Positions 1-61,680 of a DNA stretch of 64,000 bases are shown here, in pieces. Made by a program: the position numbers and the translations under genes. The stretch lies in NCBI RefSeq assembly GCF_036971445.1, contig NC_091472.1, positions 93,434,001 through 93,498,000 of the forward strand, written 5' to 3'. The notes under the pieces were generated by a model, which was not told the origin of the DNA, did no database searches, and was given only the letters and a program-made list of their open reading frames with translations. The stretch is from Narcine bancroftii. Its lineage: Eukaryota. The stretch's first letter is position 1; the number at the start of each line of letters is the position of its first letter.

Positions 1-581
1 ACCTTATCTGTCAGAGCCATTTCATACCTCTTCTTTCCATCCTGATTCCCCTCAGATGAATCCTATACTGATTGCCAGCTCTGTCCTTTGTAAAAAAAAA
101 ACTGGCTGTCATAGGAAAAATTAAAAAAAAAGAAACCTTAAGATATCTTTATCAGAATCTTCTGGCCCTTCTCATTGAAGCCTGGTATTCAGCAAAACCT
201 GAACTTTGACCACTAGCACCCCTTCTCAAAATGGCCACTCTACTCAGGCCTACTCTCCTTTGATACTCACCTTTAACAGTCTCTTTATAATCTTTACTTC
301 ACTGCTCCTCCTCTTTGCTTCTCTGGATTATGCTTGCTGAAACTAAAATTGAAAAGTATCTGATGCCGTTTTATGCAGAAAATAGATTGCAAGTCAAAGT
401 TAGGTTGGTTTAACAAAACTTTTATCAAACATTCTCTCATTTTGTGCAGCTCCATTAAATCTTTTTGATAACATGTTGCACACTGGTGCTTCTAAGATAT
501 CTACCTTTCTTTTTAACCTCAAAAAGGTGTGGGCTCTCTCCAACCAGATGTTGTTAACATCAACTTCTTTGGTTTCTGCTC

Positions 582-769
582 TGTACTGACAATAACCACA
601 CCAGCTGTGTGAGTATAAGACAGCTTTAATAAACTAATATGTACACTAAAAGGTCTTGTCTCTCTACAAGACGAACCTGGAAGGCAATACTGTAGCTCTG
701 GACTGCTTTATATACATCGTCACCTGGATGACCCCTGGTGACCTAGTGGTGTAATTACATATCATCACA
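582..769 (-). repeat. 3' LTR of Gypsy element 1
   Basis: Direct repeat of 5648-5833, roughly 10% diverged by eye; adjacent to the polypurine tract. Confidence 0.95.
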
Positions 770-1283
770 TTCACCCCCCCCCCTTTAAAAAATTGTTATT
801 TCCCCCGCCCCCTCACCCACCTGTCCTCCTTCCCTTGTTTGTAAGTTCATAAGTCCAAAATTTTTTGTGGCTTCTGTTGCCTTCTGGACCTCCTCAGTAG
901 TGGTATAAGGGTGGGGAGTGCGGTCTGCCTTTCGTCCTTTCTTGGTGGAGATGTGGGGGTGGGAAGTACTAGATAGCCATGTGGCCATGTGGGCTGAGGA
1001 CCCTCTTGTATGGGATTAGGTCCTGCCATCAAGTCTAGGGTGGTGATAATTTGTGGGGCGGGCGTACCTAGGGTCCTGATTTCCGGTGTGGGTGGTATAC
1101 TCCTCTGGGGTAACTCGATGGACGACTGTTCTAGTGACTGCTGCTGCGCTCCTTGTTGATCCGTAGACATCTGTGTTTCCTTCGCATTGTTCACACATCC
1201 GGCCGGTGCGCGATCCATGGTGGCCACCGAGTCTTCTCTTCCATCTGGGAATGTGACAAAAGCGTACTGAGGGTTCCTGTGCC

Positions 1284-2459
1284 TCAATGGGGGTCCACTT
1301 TGTGGGGTCTGCATTGCTTCCAGAGGAGAACAGGCCCCGGTGTCATCATCCATTTAGTCAGCACTGTGCCCGTCGTGGCTTTCCTTGTGAAAGAAAAGAT
1401 ACGGTCATGTGGGGTCATGTTAGTGGCACTACGCAACAAAGAATGTATAGCATGTAGGGCTTCTGGCAACACTTCTTGCCATCTAGTAACAGGCAGGTCT
1501 TTTGCTTTTAAAGTCAAGAGGACCATTTTCCAGATAGTGGCATTTTCCCTTTCGACTTGTCCATTTCCCCTGGGATTGTAACTTGTCGTGCAGCTGGTAG
1601 CAATCCCTCTCTCGTGCAGGTATTGCTGTACTTCTGCGTTCATGAATGCAGCACCCCTGTCTGTGTGTATGTAGTTCGGGTACCCAAATATGCTGAAGAT
1701 GGGTTGGAGGCATTTTATAACAGTGGTTGCTGATACATCAGAACACGGGATTGCGAAGGGGAAACAGGAATATTCATCTATTACGTTTAGGAAATAGTCA
1801 TTTCTATTATTGGACGGGAGCGGGCCTTTAAAATCGAGGCTGAGGTGCTCAAAAGCTTTGGTAGCTTTTATCAGGGTGGCTTTGTCTGGCTGGTAAAATT
1901 GCGGTTTGCATTCCGTACAGATGAGGCAGCTCTTGTTCACTGACCTCACTTCCTCGACTGAAAATGGGAGGTTTTGGGTTTTAATGAAGTGAAACAGTCT
2001 AGCGAACTCCGGGTGGCCCAGCTCATTGTGCAAGCTCTGCAACTGGGACGTGTAGTTAAGGATGACACAAGTGCCTCTGGACAGCGCGTCCGGGGACTCG
2101 TTGAGTCTCCCGGAGCGGTAGAGAATGTCGTAATTAAATGTAGACAATTCTATCCGCCAGCGCAGCATTTTGTCATTCTTATTTCTCCCCCTGTTCTGGT
2201 TATCGAACATAAAAGCCACAGACCGTTGGTCTGTGATGAGGGTGAAGTGTTTGAACGCCAGATAATGTCGCCACTGCTTTACTGCTTCCACAATGGCTAG
2301 GGCCTCCTTCTCTACTGCTGAGTGTCTTACCTCGGTCCCCTGTAGGGTTCCCGAGAAAAAGGCCACTGGTTGTCCGTTGTGGTTTAGGGTGGCTGCCAGA
2401 GCCACATTGGATGCATCTGTTTCTACTTGAAACGGGATCAACTCATCTATGGACCACAT
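1284..2459 (-). pseudogene. Gypsy pol remnant: RNase H + integrase (391-aa ORF)
   Basis: RNase H motifs (VETDASN, EKEALA, TDQRS), HHCC zinc finger (LHNELGHP...CLICTEC), DDE core. Confidence 0.93.
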
Positions 2460-2561
2460 GGTAGCTTTAGCGATATGATCCCTAATGTCCCTGAATGCTC
2501 TGGTGGCTGCTGGGCACAGTGGGAAAACTGAGGCTTTTATAAGTGGGCAGGCCCTGTCGAC

Positions 2562-5060
2562 TTAGTTGGGGACCCATTGGGCGTAGTAAGCGAACAGTCC
2601 CAAACACCTTTTTAGTGCTTTCAACGTTTGTGGCACTGGGAGGTCTCGGAGAGGGCGCATACGGGCTGGGTCTGAGCTGATTTCCCTCTTCTGCACTATG
2701 TAGCTCAGCATTGGCAACTTCCTGGCGCTAAAGACGCATTTGTCCCTGTTGTATGTTAGGTTCCTTTCCTCGGCTGCCTGGAAGAAGTGTTTTAAATTCG
2801 TGTCATGATCCTCCTGGGTATGGCCACAGATTGTCACGATATGTTGCCATTGCTTTACTGCTTCCACAATGGCTAGGGCCTCCTTCTCTACTGCTGAGTG
2901 TCTTACCCCTGACCCCTGTAGAGTTCCCGAGAAAAAAGCCACCCGGTCGTCCGTCGTGGTTTAGGGTGGCTGCCAGAACCACATCGGATGCATCCATTTC
3001 TACTTGAAATGGGATCGACTCATCTATGGACCGCATGGTAGCTTTAGCGATATGGTCCCTAATATCCCTGAATGCTCTGGTGCCTGCTGAGCACAGTGGG
3101 AAAACTGAGGCTTTTATAAGTGGGCGGGCCCTGTAATGTAATTTAGTAACTTACATTATCTAAGAAGGGGAACACCGCTTTCAGTTGGAACTCATCTACT
3201 ATTCGGTACATTTCTCTCTGAAACAGGAACACTCCATTGGTGACACTGAAGGGGAGTCGCAGAAATTGATACAGCCTGCCGTCTGCCTCAAATGCCGTGT
3301 AAATGCAATCCCTGTTTCTAATGGGCAGTTGGTGGTATGCTGCCTTCAGGTCTATGGTGGAGAACACCTTATACTGCGCAATGTTGTTGACCCTGTCTGC
3401 TATGCGTGGCAAGGGTTCGCCATCTAGTTGTGTAAATTTGTTGATTGTCTGGCTGTAATCCACTACCATGCACAGTTTTAATCCTGACTTCACTACAACC
3501 ACCTGGGCTCTCCAGGGGCTAGTGCTCTGCTCTATGATGCCCTCCTGTAGTAGCCTGCAGACCTCTGTCCGAATGAAGGCTCTGTCCCTCAGGTCGTATG
3601 TACCTCCTGCTCTTTGTGGCTATTGGTGTGCATTCTGGGGTCAGGTGTGTGAACAGCGGAGGGGGTTCTATGTTCAGGACAGACAGGCTGCAGCGTTGTT
3701 TCTTTGTAAGGCGTAGTGGGGGGTGAGGCCCATTGTACACTATTGTAATACTTTCTAACTGGCATTGAAAATCTAACCCCAATAATACCGGGGCACAGAG
3801 GTGAGGGAGTCTAGTAATTTGAACCCTTCGTATTTTGTGCCCTAGATTTCTAGAGTAACCCTGCAAAACTGTTTTACCTAGCTGCAAGGCTGCTGGCTGC
3901 TAACAGGATCTGGTGCTCACTCGGGCATGTGGGGAGGGCAAGGTGGTTGTCTAACCCCTGGCCAATAAAACTTTCAGTGCTTCCACTATCTATTAAGCAA
4001 CTTACCCTCACATCATTAATTTTGATGCACACAGTGGCATCAGATAAATTGTGTGGACTTGCCTGATTCATGCGTAGGGAAGCAAGTCTGGCGTATCCTT
4101 CGTGTCCTTCCATCCAATAGTACTCGGCGTCATATTCATCTCCTGAAAACTGTGTCCTCTGCTTTGTAGCATTTGTCCAAGATGGCTGGCTGCATGTGAC
4201 ATTCTTCTTCTTCTTGTTTGTGGAGAAAGAAGAGCTTTCCCCGCCTCTTATTAGCATGAGAATGGGCCTTGGCTGTGGCCTTGGGGCTTCTCTAGACTTT
4301 TGCATAATGCCCACGTTTTCCACAGTTGGAACAGATATTTTCTCTGGCAGGGCAGAGGGCTCTGGGGTGCTTTCTTTGTCCCCAGAAAAAGCACTTGGGC
4401 CTTCGAAGTGTGTTGCTGCTGCTGTGAATTCCTGTGAAGCAGCATACTTTTCTTTTCGATGGGCTCGAGAGTCCAGCAGTGTGATGTTTGTCCCAGCCCT
4501 AGGGTCCTGTGAGTACTCCTCCAATTCTTTCCTGGTGCTAAAGCTTCTGCAATAGTCTCTGCCTCATTTAGCCCCACCATTCCTTTCTCCAGCAATCAAT
4601 GTCTCGTCTCAGTGGACCGTATGCCTGCAACAATTCTGTCCCTAATAAGGTCCTCGGCATACTCCTGAGATGATACTGCTTTAAAGTTGCAGCCTCTCGC
4701 CAGGTCTTTCAGAGAGAGTATAAAGTCTCTGGCAAACTCCCCTACTTGTGACCTGGTCATGAGGCTGTACCAGGAGTGGAGTTCGCTATGCCCCTTACTG
4801 TAATGTCTCTGTAAAATATTCATTGCCTCTTGATAGGACCTGGCTTCCTGTATAAGGGAGTAAGGGTGGTCTCCCAGCTGCGCTAACAGCAGCATTAATA
4901 GCTCTTTATCCGATGCCTCAGCATCCTCCACGTAATTCAGAAAGCATCTCTGCCAGCGGCCGAAGTGTTTGCCGGCTCCGGGATTTCTGAGGTCGAGCTC
5001 CAGCCTGTTTGGTCGCAGCACATGGCTAAGCCACAGACTCTGGTCCCTTAGGTGTAGCAA
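2562..5060 (-). pseudogene. Frameshifted Gypsy gag, protease and reverse transcriptase
   Basis: ORFs 4596-5060 (gag), 3874-4524 (protease DSG), 3143-3502 and 2562-2942 (RT); broken by stops, frameshifts and an internal duplication. Confidence 0.9.
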
Positions 5061-5647
5061 GGGCGGACCCAGGGGTACTGGGAGCTGCTGGTAGAGCCTC
5101 TGTGGGGCTCGTGTCTGCTAGAGGAGTAACCTGGGTGATTGGGGCTGTTGGCTGAGTCTCTGGCTTTGGGACATTTGTAGCGGGCTTAGGGGGGATCCCA
5201 GAGGTAGCATCAGGGGTACTGGGGAAACTGCTGCTGGGGGAGTGACAGTAGCGATGTCTGCTTTCCCTGGATCTGGAGTGATCGGGAATTCTGCACATAT
5301 GTGGCGATCGGGAGCACAACTTGTGGAGATCCTTCCACCCGCACTTGTAGTGGCCCCTTTCTGATCAGACTGGGGTTTAGGGTCAGCGCCGCCTGTACCG
5401 ATGAACTCATGGGCAGACAGGGCTCTTGGCCATTTCTTAACTGCCCTATCGTACTTCTGTGGTCTTCCCCACATTCCACCACGATTCCAGTACAGCGGTC
5501 CCTCACCGTCTCTGTCCTCAGATGCACGGGCGTGCTAGTCATCCCCGGATTCCATTCCTTAGGAAGAGTCTCCAGGTGGTCGGGAATGTGCATTGCAAAA
5601 GCAGAAGCAGCTTCCATCCTAGTAGCTATCATATTAGTTTATTAAAT

Positions 5648-5833
5648 TGTACTGACAATAACCACACCAGCAGTGCGAGTATAAGACAGCTTTAATAAAC
5701 TAATATGTACACTGAGGTATTGTCTCTCTGCAAGACGAACCTAGAAGGCTAGCCTGTAACTCTGGACTGCTTTATATACAAGATCACCGGGGTGACCCCT
5801 GGTGACCTAGTGGCATAATTACATATCACCACA
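5648..5833 (-). repeat. 5' LTR of Gypsy element 1
   Basis: TATATAAA on the minus strand at 5771-5778, ATTAAA poly(A)-like signal at 5691-5696, TG...CA termini. Confidence 0.95.
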
Positions 5834-5839
5834 TGATCG

Positions 5840-7404: not shown

Positions 7405-8780
7405 GATTGTGATCTCAGGAGGGCTACCCGTGCCACGTGCTAGTGAGGCCAGAAATAGGAAGTGAATGCAGCTAAATACGTGGCTAATGAGATGGTGCAG
7501 GAGGGAGGGCTTCATGTTTCTGGACAATTGGGCTCTGTTTCAGGGAAGGTGGGACCTGTTCTGATGGGACGCTTTCCACCTAGGTTTGCTAGTGCTGCTC
7601 CGGTGAATTTAAACTAGATTGGTGAGGGGGATGGGAACCAGGGTGTTAGAGCAGATAATGAGGTGGAGACGGATAAAAGTCATGCGAGGACTGCATGTAA
7701 AGACAGAAATCAAATGTTTGTACGTGATAGAAATGTTCTCAGGTTTATTTATTTCAATGCAAGTAGTATTGTCAGAAAGGCAGACGAGCTTAGGGCATGG
7801 ATTGGCACGTGATTATGACATTATTGTTATTAGTGAGGATTCCATTGCTTCAGACTTGATATTAGGGGAAGGGATGAAAGAAGGCAGAGTGGCATTTCTG
7901 GTCAGGGAAAATATAGCTGTGCTTAGACAGGTCAGCCCAGAGGGCTCATCTACAGAGACAATATGGTTGGAGCTGAGGAACAGGAAAGGTGTGACCACAT
8001 TGATAGTGCTGTATTATAGACCGCCCAATAGTCAGAGAGAATTGGCGGAGCAAATCTGTAGAGAGGTAGCAGACCGTTGTAAAAAAACAGAAAGTTGTAA
8101 TAGTAGGAGATTTTAACTTTTTGCATATTGACTGGGATTTCCATTCTGTAAAAGGACTGGATGGCTTAGAGTTTCTTAAAGGTGTTCAGGAAAGTTTTCT
8201 AAATCAGTATATAGGGGTACAATGAGGGAGGATGCAGTACTTGATCTCCTATTAGGGAACCAGACAAGTCAGGTGACAGAAGTATGTGTAGGCAAACATT
8301 TTGGGTCAAGTGACCATAATATCATTAGTTTCAAGTTAATTATGGATAAGTATAGGCCTGGACTTCGAGTTGAGATTCTAAATTGGAGAAAGCCCAATTT
8401 TGTGGAAATGAGAAATGATCTAGGAGGGGTGGATTGGGATAAATGCTTTCTAGCAAGAATGTGTTAAATAAGTGGAAGGCCTTCAAAAGCAAAATTTTGA
8501 GAGTGCAGTGTTTGTATGTTCCCATCAGAAATAAAGGCAAAGTTAACAGGCATAGGGAACCTTGGTTTTCGAGGGATATTGGTGATCTAGTTAAGAAGAG
8601 AAAGGTGTATAGCAGGTATAGGCAACAGGAGCAAATGAGGCATTAGAAGAGAATAGAAAATGTAAGAAAATATTTAAGAAGACAATCAGGAAGGCAAAAA
8701 GAAGACATGAGGTTGCTTTGACAGATAATGTGAAGGTAAATCTGAAGGGTTTCTACAAGTATGTTAAGAGTAAAAGAATG
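7405..8780 (+). mobile_element. CR1-clade LINE fragment (ORF1 end, APE endonuclease of ORF2)
   Basis: IWLELRNRKG...YYRPPNS, LDLLLGN...GSSDHN and NLKGFYKYVKSKR motifs in broken ORFs. Confidence 0.9.
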
Positions 8781-9047
8781 GGAATCACATTATTGTGGTC
8801 AGGCTTTACAGCTGTTTCAGCCCAAAGGATAGTAGCCCTTTCAACGTTGATGGCAAGGAGACCTGTATTACTTAAATGGAAAGATTGTAATCCACCTACT
8901 CTTTCTCAATGGCTTTCTTCTATTATGTCATGCTTAGATTTAGAAAAAAGTAGAAGTCGGACATTTGATACTACCTTTAACCTTGAAAAAACCTGGTGGC
9001 CATTAATTCAATATTTTCGTGTGACTCAAACTAATAAAGAAAATTGA
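8780..9047 (+). mobile_element. L1-clade LINE ORF2 C-terminal fragment
   Basis: ALSTLMARRPVLLKWKDCNPPTLSQWL...LEK...TWWPLI resembles the C-terminus of fish L1 ORF2. Confidence 0.7.
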
Positions 9048-16011: not shown

Positions 16012-16880
16012 ATGACAGCTCCCCACCATGACTACCAGCCCCCCCACATCTCCATCGGGCACACAAAACTCAAAACGGTCAACCAGTTTACCTATCTCGG
16101 CTGCACCATTTCATCAGATGCAAGGATCGACAATGAGATAGACAACAGACTCGCCAAGGCAAATAGCGCCTTTGGAAGACTACACAAAAGAGTCTGGAAA
16201 AACAACCAACTGAAAAACCTCACAAAGATAAGCGTATACAGAGCCGTTGTCATACCCACACTCCTGTTCGGCTCCGAATCATGGGTCCTCTACCGGCACC
16301 ACCTACGGCTCCTAGAACGCTTCCACCAGCGTTGTCTCCGCTCCATCCTCAACATCCATTGGAGCGCTCACACCCCTAACGTCGAGGTACTCGAGATGGC
16401 AGAGGTCGACAGCATCGAGTCCACGCTGCTGAAGATCCAGCTGCGCTGGATGGGTCACGTCTCCAGAATGGAGGACCATCGCCTTCCCAAGATCGTATTA
16501 TATGGCGAGCTCTCCACTGGCCACCGTGACAGAGGTGCACCAAAGAAAAGGTACAAGGACTGCCTAAAGAAATCTCTTGGTGCCTGCCACATTGACCACC
16601 ACCAGTGGGCTGATAACGCCTCAAACCGTGCATCTTGGCGCCTCACAGTTTGGCGGGCAGCAGCCTCCTTTGAAGAAGACCGCAGAGCCCACCTCACTGA
16701 CAAAAGGCAAAGGAGGAAAAACCCAACACCCAACCCCAACCAACCAATTTTCCCTTGCAACCGCTGCAATCGTGTCTGCCTGTCCCGCATCGGACTGGTC
16801 AGCCACAAACGAGCCTGCAGCTGACGTGGACTTTTTACCCCCTCCATAAATCTTCGTCCGCGAAGCCAAGCCAAAGAAAG
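16012..16880 (+). mobile_element. Young 5'-truncated RTE-clade LINE with open 270-aa C-terminal ORF
   Basis: FTYLG, RLAKANSAFGRL, LLFGSESW, QLRWMGHV, RLPKIVLYGEL, C-terminal CxxC zinc finger; CpG-rich; tail gccaagccaaagaaaga. Confidence 0.96.
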
Positions 16881-22044: not shown

Positions 22045-23055
22045 TGAATCCAGAATCAGAGAACCAGACAACATTACAACAAAGAAACAGGTCCTTCAGC
22101 CTTTCTAGTCTGTGCCGAACTATTTTTTTACTTAGACCCACTGACCTGCACCAGTCCATACCCTCCATATCCCTCCCATCCACGTACTTGTACAAATTCT
22201 TCTTACATGTTAAAATTGATCCCGCATTCACCACTTCAGCTGACAGTTCATTCCACACTCCCACACTTCCATAGTCTGTGTGAAGAAATTCCCTTCAATG
22301 TTCCCCTCCCCCAAAAAGCTTTTCCCTTGACTCATATCCTCTGGTTTGATTCTCACCAACTTTCAATGGAAAAAGCCAACCAATATTTACTCTATCGCCT
22401 CATTCTTTTACAGTCCAGGGAATAAAGTCCTAACCTGTTTAACCTTTCCATGTAACTCAGTGCCTGTAGTCTGGGCAACATCCTAGTAAATCTTCTCTGC
22501 CCTTATTGATGTCTGACCAAAACTCTGCACAATACCCCAAATATTGCTTCACCAATGTCTTATATGGCTTTCCCATAGCATCCCAACTCCTATACTCAAT
22601 ACTTTGATTTATGAAGGCCAATATCCCAAAAACTCTCTTAACCACTCTATCTATCTGTAACTCACTTTCAGGGAATTATGTATCTGTATTCCCAGATCTC
22701 TTTGTTCTATTGCACTCCTCAGTTCCCTCCATTTATCATGTATGTCCTTTCTTGGTTTGTCCTTCCAAAATGCAACATCTCACACTTGTCTACCTTAAAC
22801 TCCATCTGCAATTTTTCAGCCCATTTTTCCAGCTGGTCAAGATCCCTCTGCAAAGTTGAAAACCTTCCTCACTGCCCACAACGCCTTCAATCTTTATGTC
22901 ATTTGCAAACTTGCTGATCCAATTTACCACATTATCATCCAGATCATTAATATAGATGACAAACAGCAATGGTCCCAGTACCGATCCCAGAGGCACACCA
23001 CTAGTTACAGCCTCCACTCTGAGAAGCACCACTTTTTGGCTTCTCCAGTTTAGCC
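22045..23055 (-). mobile_element. CR1 LINE 3' portion
   Basis: VTSGVPLGSVLGPLLFVIYINDLD...ISKFA ORF and CR1 3' UTR. Confidence 0.92.
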
Positions 23056-23512
23056 AATATGCTTTATGTTGACATATAGGCCAAACAAATTCTATCTTGC
23101 TTCTTGTAAAATTATGGTGAAATCTTTGAGAGTCACTAAGGTGTGGAGGATGTCCTATGCCTTACTATTGCAAATGGACAAAGCTAGAGTATTTGGTCAG
23201 ACATCAATAAGATTAAAACAGGGCAGAGAAGATTTACTAGGATGTTGCCCAGACAACAGGCACTGAGTTACATGGAAAGGTTAAACAAGTTAAGACTTTA
23301 TTCCTTGGACTGTAGAAGAATGAGGCGATAGAGTAAATATAGAGAATACTTTAAGTTGCTTCTCCAGGAGACAGCTTCCAGCATCTCCTTCATGTCGTTG
23401 TGAAAGGTTTTAGAAATTTCCTCGCAACTCTTGTGATTGGCCATATAACTTTATTTGATAGAGTGAAAGGAACCCTGTTTGAATCTTGATCATTACTCCT
23501 GCTTAATCTGGG

Positions 23513-26500
23513 TGTAGTGTAGATAAAACTGGAAGGAGAACAAATGCTGTTATTAGCTGACAACACAGGTAGGGTTCACGAACAAACTTCAGAGGGGTTC
23601 TGGGTTTAGGCGAGAAACCAGGGTTATATATGGGTCCTATGGGGAGGAGCCGGGAGTTGGGACCTGTCGTCAGTACAGCATACCTCATGAATCTCAGTCA
23701 CTTCATTCACCCCTTCCTTCAGAATTAAGGGTCTGTGGATGAAGAGAACAAGGATCAGATGCTAGTTATAGACAGAGAAGAGAAATATTTACAATACGAT
23801 TTACAGATTTAGGCAGTCCGGGTGTCTGGAGATCGTGGTGGAGCACCTTAGCACTGGGGGACCTTGAGTTTCTTGAGTCTCCTGATCCGCCTGTGATGAA
23901 AGGGTAGAGGGTTGGGGCTCCGTTTTGATGATAGAGGGGAGTTCACCCTCCTCCTGAACCAGGTCCCCTGAGGCCCTGAGTGGAAGTGGGGAGAAAAAGC
24001 TTGGTAGCTCATGGGAAACCTGAGGCAACGGATGCTCTGCTCTGGCAGGTGCCAGGTCCCTGATGGAGATAGTGTCCTCCCTACCATCTGGGTTCTCCAT
24101 ATAGGCGTATATGGGGTTGGCATGCAGCAATTTCACCCTTTTCACTGGGGGTCGGTCTTGCTTCTCCTCATATGCTTCTCGAGAAGGACTGGACCAGGAC
24201 CAGTGAGCCGGGCTGGGAATGTAGTCCCTGATGGCGATCTTCTGTCGAATGTAAACATGAGCTTATGAGGAGTAGCACAGTGCAAAGTAGCGACTGAATT
24301 GAGTGGAGCGCTATGGGGAGGACATCCTGCCAGCACAAGTCTGGAAAGCTTTTTTGCATCAGGGCAAGTTTGACAGCCTTCCAGATCGTGGCATTCTCTT
24401 TTTCAACCTGCCCGTTCCACCGTGGGTTATAACTGGTAGTCCTGCTGGATGTGAGGCCCCTCACCAGCTTGTTGCTCATGAAGACTGAGCCCTGGTCACA
24501 ATGAATAGAGCTGGGATGCCCGAACAGGGTGAAAATAGAGTCTAAGGCCTTCACAACAGACGAGACGGACGTGTCTGGGCACAGGATGGCGAACAGGAAG
24601 TGGAAATACTCATCGATGACCGAGAGAAAGTAGATGTTCCCATTCATGGAGGGGAGAGGTCGCTTAAAAATTAATGTTTGAAGGGCCTGGATGATTTAAG
24701 TGAAAAAAGTGCAGCTTGCACTCAGCACAGTCCCGGCATAACCTGGTCATTTCCCTGACGTCTTTTAGTGAGTAGGGAAAAATTGGAGGACAACAAAATG
24801 AGCCATGCAGGTGACTCCTGGATGGCAGAGCTCATTGTGTATGATCTGCAGTTGATTGGTGTGTATGGAGGCACAGTATCCCCTGGACAAGGCTTCTGGA
24901 AGGTCATTAAGGGACCCTGGCAGGTAGGCGATGTCAAAACTGTTGGTGGAGAGTTCGATCCTCTACCAAGCAATTTTGTCATTCTTGATTTTGCTCCTCT
25001 TGGCGTTGCTGAACATGAATGTGACAGGGTGCTGGTCCATGAGGAGCATAAATCTTCTACCAGCCAGTTCTGAATGCACACTTGTCAGAATTGTAAGTGA
25101 AATTCAGTACTCTCGCCACATGGAGATAGCTCTTGAGATTGGCATCATGGTCTTCCATGGTGTGGTCACAGATGGTGACATTGTTGAGGTTGGAGAAGGT
25201 AGCCTTCAACCTGTACTTGTCTACCATCCTGTCCATCTGCCGCTGGAAAATACACATCCCATTGGTAATACCGAAAGGTACCTTCTGGAACTGATAGTTG
25301 ACCGTTAACCTCAAATGCCATGTACAGGCGGTCCTCAGAATGGATTGGCAGTTTTCAGGTCGATGGTTGAATAGACATGATACTGCGCGATATTGTTCAC
25401 CATATCCGAAATGCAAGGGAAGGAGTATGCTTCCAGGAGTGTGTATCTGTTAATTGTTTGGCTATAGTCAATCACTAACCTGGACTTGTTTTCCCCTTTT
25501 ACTACCACCACTTGCACTCTCCATGGGCTGGTGCTGTGTTTGATGATCCCCTCCTCCAGCTGGCGCTGGGTCTCTGTCTTTATAAATTCCCTGTCTGCCA
25601 CACTGTACCTCCTCCTCTTGGTGATGATGGGCTTAGAGTCAGCAGACAGGTTTGTGAACAGGGCGGTGGGGGGGGGGGGGGGGGGGGGCTCGATATTCAG
25701 TGTGGAGAGGCTGTAAGTAGGTCCTCATTTTGAGGGCCCTCCGTTCCGAACCGTTACTGGGGTACTGGGGGAAGGGGATCAGAAAATTCCAAGGTCACAC
25801 TTTTAAGGTGACACAGGAAGTCCAAGCCCAACAATACTGGAGCACATAATTCATCTAAAATGTACATGCAAAATTTACAAAATTCCCCCCTTTAAATAAC
25901 AGATGAACTATATAATGTCTCTGTACACACGCCAAATAGGACTGGGATGCTAGGAAGATTCGGTAATTAGACGGGTACATTTTTTATTTATATTTTTGCA
26001 CAGTCCCTGAGTCTATGAAACTTTCTGTGGAGCCTGTGTCAATCAGGCACTTGGTTGAATGTCTGTTTCCCTTCACCATCACCATTGAGTTGTTGAGCTG
26101 GTGAGGTCTATTCTGGTTGAAGATCAGTGATGCCAGGTCTCTGAAGATGCCATGTTCTTCCCACGAGTGACCCCTCCATCCTGAATCAACCTGTGCAGGT
26201 AAGATGGTGCCAACCTCTTGGCATGGCAAGATGGCCGCCCTCTTTCCTCCTCTAATGATGATGATGGTGCCGAATTCAAAATCAGGCTGATGCAAGATGG
26301 CTGCTGAGCCTTTTTGCGCCATTTCTGTAGGCGGCAGGTTGCACCGCAGGCAATCCTGGGTGAGTTCAGGGTGGATGGCTAGGGGCTGGAATCGGATCCA
26401 GGAGCAGTACAGCCCATGGACCTCCCTTAATGTGGCAGAGCCTCGCCCAATGTCCCTACTTTCAGCAGCGGGAGCACGCCGAATCTTTGGCTGGGCAATG

Positions 26501-26850
26501 GGCACAGGGGTGCTGTCCCTTGCCATAGAAAAATCATGGACTTTTAGCGGCAGCCGTTAGAGCGGGGTCCGCCGTAGCAGGAGGAATTGGACCTTGGAGG
26601 TGCTTACCCAAGACCCCGAGTTCCCTGGCCTCAAGGTCATCGTTCTTGAGACTGGCCGTTCCAGTGATTTGGCTAGTTCGACATGGCTAGTGAGGTCCTC
26701 CCTTCCCAAATCGAGCAGTCGCTGCCTCACATATCTCGAGTGGACCCCAGTGACTAGAGTGTCCCGGATCTGTTCATCTTCCCAGACGCAGTCAATATAT
26801 CCAGGAAGAGTGCACCTGTAGCCCTCGTTTTGCTGTTTTGCAACACACTC
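23513..26850 (-). mobile_element. Gypsy LTR element 3 (related to element 1), 5'-truncated and internally deleted
   Basis: 3' LTR ~23513-23705 with PPT 23706-23720; gag (QIRDTLVTG), protease (CLIDTGSTESFI), RT (SPWRVQVVVV, YSTIDLK, VPFGITNG), integrase (NGQVEKEN). No 5' LTR found. Confidence 0.92.
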
Positions 26851-26859
26851 CTCAGAGCC

Positions 26860-29334: not shown

Positions 29335-29935
29335 CTTCTTCTTCTTTGGCTTGGCTTTGCGGACGAAGATTTATGGAGGGGTATGTCCACGTCTGCTGCA
29401 GGCTCGTTGGTGACTGACAAGTCCGATGCGGGACAGGCAGGCATGGTTGCAGTGGTTGCAAGGGAAAATTGGTTGGTTGGGGTTGGGTGTTGGGTTTTTC
29501 CTCCTTTGTCTTTTGTCAGTGAGGTGGGCTCTGCGGTCTTCTTCAAAGGAGGTTGCTGCCCGCCGAACTGTGAAGCACCAAGATGCACAGTTGGAGGCTA
29601 TATCAGCCCACTGGCGGTGGTCAATGTGGCAGGCACCAAGAGATATCTTTAAGCAGTCCTTGTACCTCTTCTTTGGTGCACCTCTGTCTCGGTGGCCAGT
29701 GGAGAGCTAGCCATAGAACACGATCTTGGGAAGGCGATGGTCCTCCATTCTGGAGACATGACCCACCCAGCGCAGTTGGGTCTTCAGCAGCATGGATTCG
29801 ATGCTTGCGGACTCTGCCAGCTCAAGTACTTCGATGTTGGTGATGAAGTCATTCCAATGAATGTTGAGGATGGAGCGGAGACAGCGCTGATGGAAGCATT
29901 CTAGGAGCTGTAGGTGATGCCGGTAGAGGGCCCAT
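29335..29935 (-). mobile_element. RTE-clade LINE 3' fragment (same family as 16012-16880, more mutated)
   Basis: Reverse complement aligns closely with 16285-16880; (GAA)n tail. Confidence 0.95.
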
Positions 29936-60344: not shown

Positions 60345-60885
60345 AAAAGGCTGAGGACCCTGTGATATCCATCTCTGAGGGTGACCTCAGAACATCATTC
60401 AAGAGGGTGAATCCTCGCAAGGCATTAGGCCCTGGCAGGGTTCTGAAAATTTGCGCCAACCAACTAACTGGAGTGTTCACAGATATTTTCAACCTCTCAT
60501 TGCTGTAGTCAGAGGTTCCCACCTGCTTCAAATGGTCATCAATCATTCTGGTACCCAAGAATAGCTGCCTCAACAACTACCATCCAATAGCATTAACTTC
60601 TACTGTCATGAAATGCTTTGAGATGCTGGACTTGGCCAGAATTAACACGTACCTAAGCAAAGATCTGGACCCTTTGCAATTCGCCTATCGTCACAATCGC
60701 TCCACAGCAGATGCAATATTGCTAGCTCTCCACTCAGCTCTGGATCACCTCAAAAACAGCTGTTATTCATCAACTACAGCTCAGCCTTCAATACTATTAT
60801 TTCCTTAGTGCTGGTCAAGAAGCTACAAACTCGAGGCCTCTTCAAATGTATCCTTGATTTTCTCATCGGAAGACCACAGTCAGTA
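60345..60885 (+). mobile_element. Rex1/Babar RT fragment
   Basis: NPRKALGP...CANQLTGVFTDIFNLSL; MKCFE...LDPLQFAYRHNRSTADAI. Confidence 0.92.
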
Positions 60886-60914
60886 CCAGTGTTTATAATG
60901 AGTAGAGCAGTAGG

Positions 60915-61680
60915 TTAAGCACACATCCTTTGGATGTTCCTGTGTTGATAATCAGTGAGGAGGAGACATTGTTTCCAATTCGTACTGACTGTGGTCTTTC
61001 TATGAGGATCCACTTGCAGAGGGGGATTCAGAGGCCCAGAGTCTGTAGCTTCTTGACCAGCACTGAGGGAATAATGGTATTGAAGGCTGAGCTGTAGTCG
61101 ATGAAGAACAACCATATGTCTGAGTTGTTGTTTCTGATGTGTTCTAGAGCTGAATGGAGAGCCAGCAATATTGCATCTGCTGTGGAGCGATTGTGACGAT
61201 AGGCAAATTGCAGTGGGTCAATATCTTTGCTTAGGTACTTGTTAATTCTGGCCATGCCCAGCTGCTAAAAGCATTTCATCACAGTAGAAGTTAGTGCAGT
61301 AGTTCTCAACCTTTTTCTTTCCACTCATATATCACTTTAGGTAATCGCTATGCCATCGGTGCTGTGTGATTAGTAAGGTGGTATGTGAGTGGGAAGGGAA
61401 GGTTGAGAATCACTGCTCAAAACCCAATTGTTATGGAAATATTTTGCTTGATAAAAATGTAATTGACCCATTTCTTTTGGAGTTATGAAACTGTGCACAT
61501 AACGAATCAATTAGAAACGATTAAAACAGTGGTTTTCAAACTTTTCTTTGCACCCACATACCACCTTAAGCAATCTCTAGCTAATCAGAGAGCACCTATG
61601 GCATAGGGAATACTTAAAGTGGTATGTGAGTGGAAAGAAAAAGGTTGAGAACCACTGAGTTAGTGCTACTGGATGATAAT
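60915..61680 (-). mobile_element. Rex1/Babar RT fragment in inverted orientation, interrupted by a hAT MITE
   Basis: DPLQFAYRHNRSTADAI...FIDYSSAFNTIIP. Confidence 0.92.
61297..61657. mobile_element. hAT (Charlie-like) MITE, 361 bp, composite structure
   Basis: Perfect 8-bp TSD agttagtg (61289-61296, 61658-61665); ~35-bp TIRs cagt(a/g)gttctcaacctttttctttccactca. Confidence 0.96.

What the first reader, a model, noticed from the sequence alone, without database searches (positions are those of the whole stretch)
5630..5707. Gypsy element without a tRNA PBS: a 17-nt perfect complement to its own LTR poly(A)-signal region
Seen: just inside the 5' LTR, where TGG... is expected, the sense strand reads TTTAATAAACTAATATG (5630-5646). 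This is the exact reverse complement of LTR sequence 5691-5707, with a 44-nt loop between them. The LTR arm contains the ATTAAA signal, is identical in both LTRs (625-641) although they differ by roughly 10% elsewhere, and the internal arm ends on the first ATG (5632). Known: Tf1/sushi elements self-prime using the transcript's first ~11 nt. Inference: here the partner lies ~40 nt past the expected TSS and over the poly(A) signal. One duplex could therefore prime RT without tRNA (from the 5' R region or the RNA 3' end), hide the 5' LTR poly(A) site, and gate gag initiation. A similar lineage may already be catalogued.
Basis: partly seen in the sequence, partly recalled or inferred. Interest (0 to 1): 0.75.

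Follow-up and report, generated by a model that had tools for sequence, protein, structure and literature searches.

The report
Self-priming Gypsy retrotransposon clade in animals
This decayed jumping gene, probably from a ray genome, and 17 distantly related lineages carry at the primer site a mirror copy of part of their own end-repeat instead of a tRNA match, so the group likely starts copying itself with a cut piece of its own RNA.

Summary
Confirmed: 5630-5646 is the exact complement of LTR 5691-5707 and starts 1 nt inside the 5' LTR of a decayed minus-strand Ty3/Gypsy element. It is clade-wide, not copy-specific. 20 of 25 metagenome junctions and 4 of 4 in a second collection show 11-19 perfect self-matches in this register; 3'-LTR flanks give 4-8, and three distant TGG-primed relatives 5-7. 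Across 18 lineages the letters change but 161 of 162 scored cells pair (permutation mean 86). One family shows a compensatory change between copies about 99% alike. No lineage has TGG, and no chromodomain was found, so this is not Tf1/sushi by that test. Best reading: Tf1-like self-priming, with the primer cut just after the poly(A) hexamer; no biochemistry was done. Poly(A) masking is plausible (11 of 18); ATG gating is not conserved. The scan noted this kind of Gypsy self-pairing before on other DNA (six notes); ten literature searches found no description.

The parts
5648..5833 (-). 5' LTR, 186 nt, TG...CA
   Evidence: many unrelated flanks end at 5648 and 5833 in run X1 (156 and 196 contigs)
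5770..5778 (-). TATA-like box TATATAAAG; would predict a start near 5745 (inferred)
   Evidence: sequence; 78 nt upstream of arm G10
5691..5707 (-). LTR arm, the candidate self-primer; 3' end is the last A of ATTAAA (5696-5691); conserved (A/T)G(C/T) at 5701-5699
5670..5690 (-). stretch right after the predicted cut; 5-bp hairpin in the 3' LTR copy (604-624), broken in the 5' copy; hairpin enriched across the clade
5630..5646 (-). primer-binding site, 17/17 complement of the arm, 1 nt (5647) after the LTR; no TGG
5031..5632 (-). ray-lineage N-terminal extension of Gag, from ATG 5632 or 5617; broken in this copy
4262..5030 (-). gag homology with zinc-knuckle region, broken by stops and frameshifts
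   Evidence: tblastn with intact relative L001
3567..4071 (-). protease and linker, broken
847..3598 (-). RT, RNase H, integrase and C-terminal tail; broken, with a ~294-bp internal duplication (2841-3134 vs 2265-2557, 92%); no chromodomain
770..786 (-). polypurine tract
582..769 (-). 3' LTR, 188 nt, with the second arm copy at 625-641
577..581 (.). target-site duplication, 4 of 5 identical to 5834-5838

Best explanation
The 17-nt site is the primer-binding site of a Gypsy retrotransposon and is complementary to the element's own LTR instead of a tRNA end; the start of the element's RNA likely folds onto it, and RT's RNase H is predicted to cut just after ATTAAA, which would leave a short RNA primer for minus-strand DNA. 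Shown: position 1 nt after the LTR, perfect pairing, no TGG, and covariation across and within families. Inferred from Tf1: folding in the particle, the cut at 5691/5690, and copying of the primer into the new PBS, which would keep arm and PBS matched. Inferred from the conserved (A/T)G(C/T) at positions 11-9 and the fall-off of pairing after 13-16: transcription would start at or a few bases before 5701, giving an 11-16-nt primer and a very short R. The poly(A) hexamer then sits inside the primer because R is short, and the duplex would also hide it in the 5' LTR.
For: Register: the PBS starts 1 nt after CA in the window and in most relatives. 20 of 25 metagenome junctions have 11-19 perfect pairs, against 4-8 for 14 3'-LTR flanks and at most 10 in 1494 of 1500 random windows; 4 of 4 assessable junctions in a second collection have 13-17. 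18 lineages: positions 2-11 and 13 pair in 18 of 18; 161 of 162 scored cells pair, permutation mean 86, maximum 119 in 20,000; each PBS fits its own arm best in 18 of 18; 0 of 18 have TGG. Compensation within families: L003 vs L002/L010/L032 (pol 98.5-99.1% for the pairs computed) changes both LTRs and the PBS; L007 vs L008 (92%) likewise. Three distant relatives with integrase before RT have TGG sites and only 5-7 nt of self-match. For a start near the arm: G at position 10 in 17 of 18, A or T at 11 in 18 of 18; TATA-like boxes 29 nt before G10 in L055 and L014, and only 55 nt from LTR start to arm end in L055; a position-14 mismatch persists in 3 of 5 copies of one family. Precedent: Tf1 uses its first 11 bases with RNase H cleavage (PMC7175516, passage), and its PBS is copied into the cDNA end (PMC11042837, passage).
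Against: No TSS, cleavage site or primer-DNA junction was measured. Both ray elements in the window have a TATA box 73-78 nt before G10, which would put the start about 40 nt upstream of the arm. Only 2 of the 17 lineage representatives scanned have a TATA at -29, in AT-rich DNA. Pairing covaries at positions 12-13 and often runs to 16-19, beyond a start at 11. The two extra duplexes of the Tf1 pretzel are not enriched (4.7 vs 4.3 and 6.6 vs 6.2 bp). One junction (L066) has no arm, L081 has G at 9, and uncompensated changes exist (L023 position 2 in both LTRs; L002, L018, L026, L063, L067).
Confidence: 0.6

Rival explanations
1. Self-priming, but not Tf1's cis fold-back: in the ray lineage RNA would start near 5745, the 5' leader would stay uncut and be copied whole, and the primer would come from the 3' R copy of the arm or from the second packaged RNA.
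For: TATA 73-78 nt before G10 in two ray elements. A tandem joint in runs X1, X5 and X6 (depth 95, 17, 22) joins 5744 directly to 5647, the predicted TSS to the predicted first base of minus-strand DNA, without shared letters. Pairing often extends to 16-19 nt, all present in the 3' copy.
Against: The joint is probably one inherited event, seen in contigs only, and other back-joints (5818 to 5643, about 5721 to 5657) show a background. L055 leaves little room for a long leader. It does not explain the conserved motif at 11-9.
Confidence: 0.2
2. The duplex is regulatory (it hides the 5' poly(A) signal or damps translation), and DNA synthesis is primed by something else.
For: The arm ends exactly on AATAAA or ATTAAA in 11 of 18 lineages. 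The fold is stable (z -2.55). The ATG is near the duplex.
Against: 7 of 18 lineages lack the hexamer but keep the pairing. A masking arm has no reason to start 1 nt after CA in nearly every lineage. No other primer site is visible, and ATG spacing varies from 14 to 37 nt.
Confidence: 0.12
3. The site binds a host tRNA fragment or other small RNA, and the LTR match is secondary.
For: Half-tRNA priming is known in copia elements (PMC6317226, PMC10886601, passages). PBS positions 1-3 and 10 are nearly invariant, as an external primer could cause. Host tRNAs could not be searched.
Against: Positions 4-9 differ between lineages and always follow the element's own LTR, even between copies 99% alike. 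No TGG. No tRNA-like match in the region.
Confidence: 0.04
4. A copy-specific inversion or duplication made the repeat.
For: Other perfect inverted repeats occur in the window and in fetched loci.
Against: The same register holds in 17 other lineages. In the high-copy family no common variant of either arm is among the 40 rows shown for X1, X5 and X6 (79 rows hidden).
Confidence: 0.01

Closest known systems
Tf1/Tf2 (S. pombe), Tj1, Tosmo/Tcry and the Tf1/sushi group of chromoviruses
   Same: Ty3/Gypsy domain order; PBS complementary to a stretch of the element's own 5' LTR instead of a tRNA; similar duplex length (Tf1 11 nt, here a 13-nt core)
   Different: No chromodomain found; pretzel side-duplexes not enriched; a local hairpin follows the arm instead; the arm ends on the poly(A) hexamer; 1-nt spacer after CA; short LTRs of about 150-235 nt; whether the primer is the RNA's 5' end is unproven
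Plant TAR copia lineage (Houba, Osr-1) and Tcn1 clade, predicted self-primers (PMC6317226, passages)
   Same: Predicted from the same signature: at least 10 nt just after the LTR complementary to the LTR
   Different: Other superfamily (TAR) or chromovirus (Tcn1), plant and fungal hosts; no poly(A)-hexamer overlap in the passages seen
Cigr-1 clade of Gypsy (lead only)
   Same: Recalled, not from a call: Cigr-1 is a ~4.2-kb element with one ~3.6-kb ORF and short LTRs, as in L001 (4.04 kb, 1213 aa). PMC6238403 (passages, supplements) lists a Cigr-1 clade in molluscs, including Biomphalaria.
   Different: No reference sequence could be obtained, so membership is untested; a Mag-lineage or MolGy clade is not excluded. 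No self-priming was seen reported for Cigr.

Membership tests
Ty3/Gypsy (Metaviridae) | LTRs, PPT, TSD and PR-RT-RH-IN order | tested here: met
   best PDB match is Ty3 Gag-Pol, E 5.7e-63
tRNA-primed Gypsy | TGG-led PBS complementary to a tRNA 3' end | tested here: not met
   0 of 18 lineages have TGG in the first 5 nt
half-tRNA-primed elements | PBS complementary to a host tRNA half | not testable with these tools
   no host genome held; no tRNA in the window or 20 loci
Tf1/sushi group | PBS complementary to own 5' LTR | tested here: met
Tf1/sushi group | chromodomain at the integrase C-terminus | tested here: not met
   none in intact L001 at E up to 0.1 or in the Pfam lists of the 240 listed homologs; loss of the domain cannot be excluded
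Tf1/sushi group | three-duplex pretzel around the PBS (PMC10085805, passage) | tested here: not met
   side-duplexes barely above shuffles in 11 lineages (4.7 vs 4.3; 6.6 vs 6.2 bp); a crude test
Tf1/sushi group | self-primer is the 5' end of the RNA | tested here: inconclusive
   motif at 11-9 and TATA at -29 in 2 lineages, against TATA at -73/-78 in rays; contigs cannot show starts
Tf1/sushi group | RNase H cleavage releases the primer | not testable with these tools
   needs biochemistry
Tf1/sushi group | RT phylogeny within chromoviruses | not testable with these tools
   no named reference sequences available; the tree holds clade members only
Cigr-1 clade | groups with Cigr-1 in RT/RNase H trees | not testable with these tools
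   original paper not held; supplements of PMC6238403 give names and accessions, and the RT motif searched for had no hit

The most novel reading that the evidence does not exclude
A metazoan-wide, non-chromoviral Gypsy clade evolved tRNA-free priming independently of Tf1, and at least its ray lineage primes from the RNA's 3' R copy (or from a second RNA) cut right after the poly(A) hexamer, leaving the 5' leader intact: a priming route not described for LTR elements.
Probability: 0.2. Interest if true: 0.8.

Novelty: new variant of a known kind. Interest (0 to 1): 0.6.

Why it matters
Self-priming has been shown only for Tf1 and is treated as a hallmark of Tf1/sushi chromoviruses, with predicted cases in some plant lineages. 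A large animal clade without a chromodomain that shows the same signature would be an independent origin, and it explains why tRNA-based PBS annotators leave many animal Gypsy elements blank. The fixed register, the G at position 10, the hexamer at the primer end and the hairpin after it give exact predictions for how an RT recognises and cuts an RNA duplex.

Tried and rejected
No whole genome is held, so copies and host tRNAs could not be read directly. Viral collection: no relatives and no match to the arm-loop-PBS pattern. Run search: no RNA holder listed; X6 is only guessed to be RNA, and contigs cannot show starts. One X6 contig switches strand at 5630/5714, as a self-primed product or a fold-back artefact would; not used. 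Rfam: one chance-level hit, mir-548, E 4. No tRNAs in the window or 20 loci. Arm identity in both LTRs is not significant. Pretzel test negative. Reading the AG at positions 11-10 as a splice acceptor was rejected: 6 of 18 lineages have T at 11. A TTACC motif upstream of the arm has no fixed spacing. L066 has no arm. The second element in the window lacks its 5' end. The tree is the quick version, has no outgroup and places the window's element weakly. Look-ups of earlier findings by place and by sequence were empty. Two papers were not held; PMC2774666 has no passage on Cigr or PBS.

Full report
Observation. The window holds a minus-strand LTR element: 5' LTR 5648-5833, 3' LTR 582-769 (about 90% identical), polypurine tract 770-786 and a 5-bp target duplication with one mismatch. 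After the terminal CA and one spacer base (5647), 17 bases (5646-5630) are the exact complement of LTR 5707-5691, whose last six bases are ATTAAA. Shuffles of the post-LTR 30-mer reached at most 13 nt in 20,000 tries. The region folds with this helix (z -2.55, 2 of 200 shuffles as stable). That the arm is identical in both LTRs is expected by chance 18% of the time.

The element. Domains run protease, RT, RNase H, integrase, broken by stops, frameshifts and a ~294-bp duplication. The nearest named proteins are from rays (Narcine bancroftii 79-87%, Hypanus sabinus about 65%); others are from cnidarians, molluscs, insects, crustaceans and flukes. An intact relative, L001, is 4.04 kb with one 1213-aa ORF and no chromodomain. 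The ray lineage has an extra ~600-nt coding stretch before the conserved Gag start at 5030. Public runs show a high-copy family with LTR ends at 5648 and 5833.

Relatives. The metagenome scan confirmed 322 relatives and returned the best 80. I examined 25 junctions: 21 found by their Gag N-terminus and 4 added by eye. L021, L037 and L052 had no Gag start, and L012, split over contig ends, was added only later. 20 of 25 have 11-19 perfect pairs with their own LTR. Four (L018, L026, L063, L067) have 7-9 because of substitutions but keep the register; the 3' LTRs of L018 and L026 pair 16 of 16. One (L066) has no arm. Controls: 14 3'-LTR flanks gave 4-8; 1494 of 1500 random windows gave at most 10, and the six longer ones were not inspected. 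A second collection gave 13 loci. All 4 with a full Gag start show 13-17 pairs. Three distant elements with integrase before RT have TGG sites and 5-7 nt of self-match. The blind scan also listed unrelated inverted repeats, so the test is position plus covariation.

Covariation. I took one representative per lineage: 14 from clustering RNase H-integrase at 80%, with L060/L063/L067 merged by their shared LTR, plus the 4 new ones. L005, L008 and L009 were dropped as kin of L007, L066 was excluded, the best-paired copy was chosen in two families, and the 3' LTR arm was used for L018 and L026; these choices favour pairing. Positions 2-11 and 13 (counted from the primer's 3' end) pair in 18 of 18 while positions 4-9 vary. 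161 of 162 scored cells pair, against a permutation mean of 86 and maximum of 119; every PBS fits its own arm best. L003 differs from L002, L010 and L032 (98.5-99.1% protein identity for the pairs computed) by one arm base in both LTRs and the matching PBS base; L007 and L008 (92%) show another such pair. Uncompensated changes also occur: L023 position 2, L002 position 2, and position 14 in L001, L031 and L059.

Conserved anatomy. G at position 10 in 17 of 18 (G is about 17% of the region), A or T at 11 in 18 of 18, a pyrimidine at 9 in 17 of 18; AATAAA or ATTAAA at the arm end in 11 of 18; (A/G)C(C/T) right after the arm in 12 of 18. A hairpin of at least 4 bp starts at the first base after the arm in 9 of 17, against 3.1 in shuffles (P 0.0006, lineages treated as independent). 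The Tf1 pretzel side-duplexes are not enriched.

Mechanism. Minus-strand synthesis must start beside the 5' LTR, and the only complement conserved there is the element's own arm. In Tf1 the first 11 bases pair with the PBS and RNase H cuts between bases 11 and 12 (PMC7175516), and the PBS is copied into the cDNA end (PMC11042837). I infer the same here, with the cut after the hexamer; re-templating would explain the compensation within families. Where the primer begins is open. The motif at 11-9 resembles an initiator (consensus recalled), L055 and L014 have TATA-like boxes 29 nt upstream, L055 has only 55 nt from LTR start to arm end, and pairing falls off after 13-16. These favour a short 5' primer and a short R, which would also explain the hexamer overlap. 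Against this, both ray elements in the window have a TATA box 73-78 nt upstream, and a tandem joint in three runs links 5744 to 5647, as a strong-stop copy running through an uncut arm would. That joint is probably a single inherited event among several other joints. Tf2 is known to use alternative starts (PMC5341516), so two promoters are possible. ATG gating is not conserved. In run X10 the LTR arm appears to differ from the window's, but a matching PBS change could not be read because 79 rows were hidden.

Known systems. Self-priming is described for Tf1/sushi chromoviruses, which in fission yeasts carry chromodomains and a pretzel structure (PMC10085805; PMC4600332), and is predicted for plant TAR and Tcn1 (PMC6317226). 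Skipper has a different, polypyrimidine site (PMC5006619). This clade works like Tf1 but fails the chromodomain and pretzel tests. A match to Cigr-1 in size and ORF layout is recalled and untested.

Literature seen. Passages only: PMC6317226, PMC3601003, PMC5006619, PMC6238403, PMC4600332, PMC8556966, PMC3670739, PMC2774666, PMC11042837, PMC7175516, PMC13524379, PMC10886601, PMC5341516, PMC10085805. Of PMC6238403's supplements four were searched; a scanned PDF and a slide file were unreadable and may bear on clade identity. [quoted passage not shown] Ten searches listed no paper that describes self-priming in this clade, judged from listings and the passages read; Repbase, GyDB and subscription journals were not searchable. 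Six earlier notes of this scan report the same kind of Gypsy self-pairing on other genomes; they are not independent evidence.

Verdict. A real, clade-wide self-priming signature in a non-chromoviral animal Gypsy lineage; new variant of a known kind; self-priming of either route about 0.8; interest 0.6.

Noticed in passing
window 23513-26853 (minus): A second, 5'-truncated element of the same clade (68% DNA identity over 330 nt); its 3' LTR (about 23705-23513) has a TATA box 73 nt before a decayed arm-like motif.
   Followed up: partly
window 5647-5744, runs X1, X5, X6: Tandem joint duplicating the stretch from the first base beside the PBS to 32 nt below the TATA box; present in two organisms.
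   Followed up: partly
window 5031-5632: Ray-lineage Q/P-rich N-terminal Gag extension of roughly 200 codons, absent from the other relatives examined, whose ATG follows the PBS directly.
   Followed up: partly
L004 3740-3790; L012 near 4010: Strong polypyrimidine-CAG stretches inside the LTR upstream of the arm; possible splice acceptors for a gag-only RNA.
   Followed up: no
L016 4239-8653: LTRs and PBS lie on the strand opposite to the pol match, suggesting an internal inversion.
   Followed up: no
L081-L093: Animal-type Gypsy elements inside contigs filed as bacterial genomes, probably host contamination; L090, L091 and L093 have integrase before RT and a TGG primer site.
   Followed up: partly
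window 60590-61657; 16281-16831 with 29385-29935; 22383-23340: Long inverted repeats, probably DNA-transposon or MITE ends or inverted LINE fragments.
   Followed up: no
window 7613-9047: Decayed frames that look like a CR1-type LINE endonuclease region (family label recalled).
   Followed up: no
L001 7793-13144 (minus): A 1783-aa host ORF ends inside the 3' LTR of an intact element; it looks sacsin-like (label recalled).
   Followed up: no
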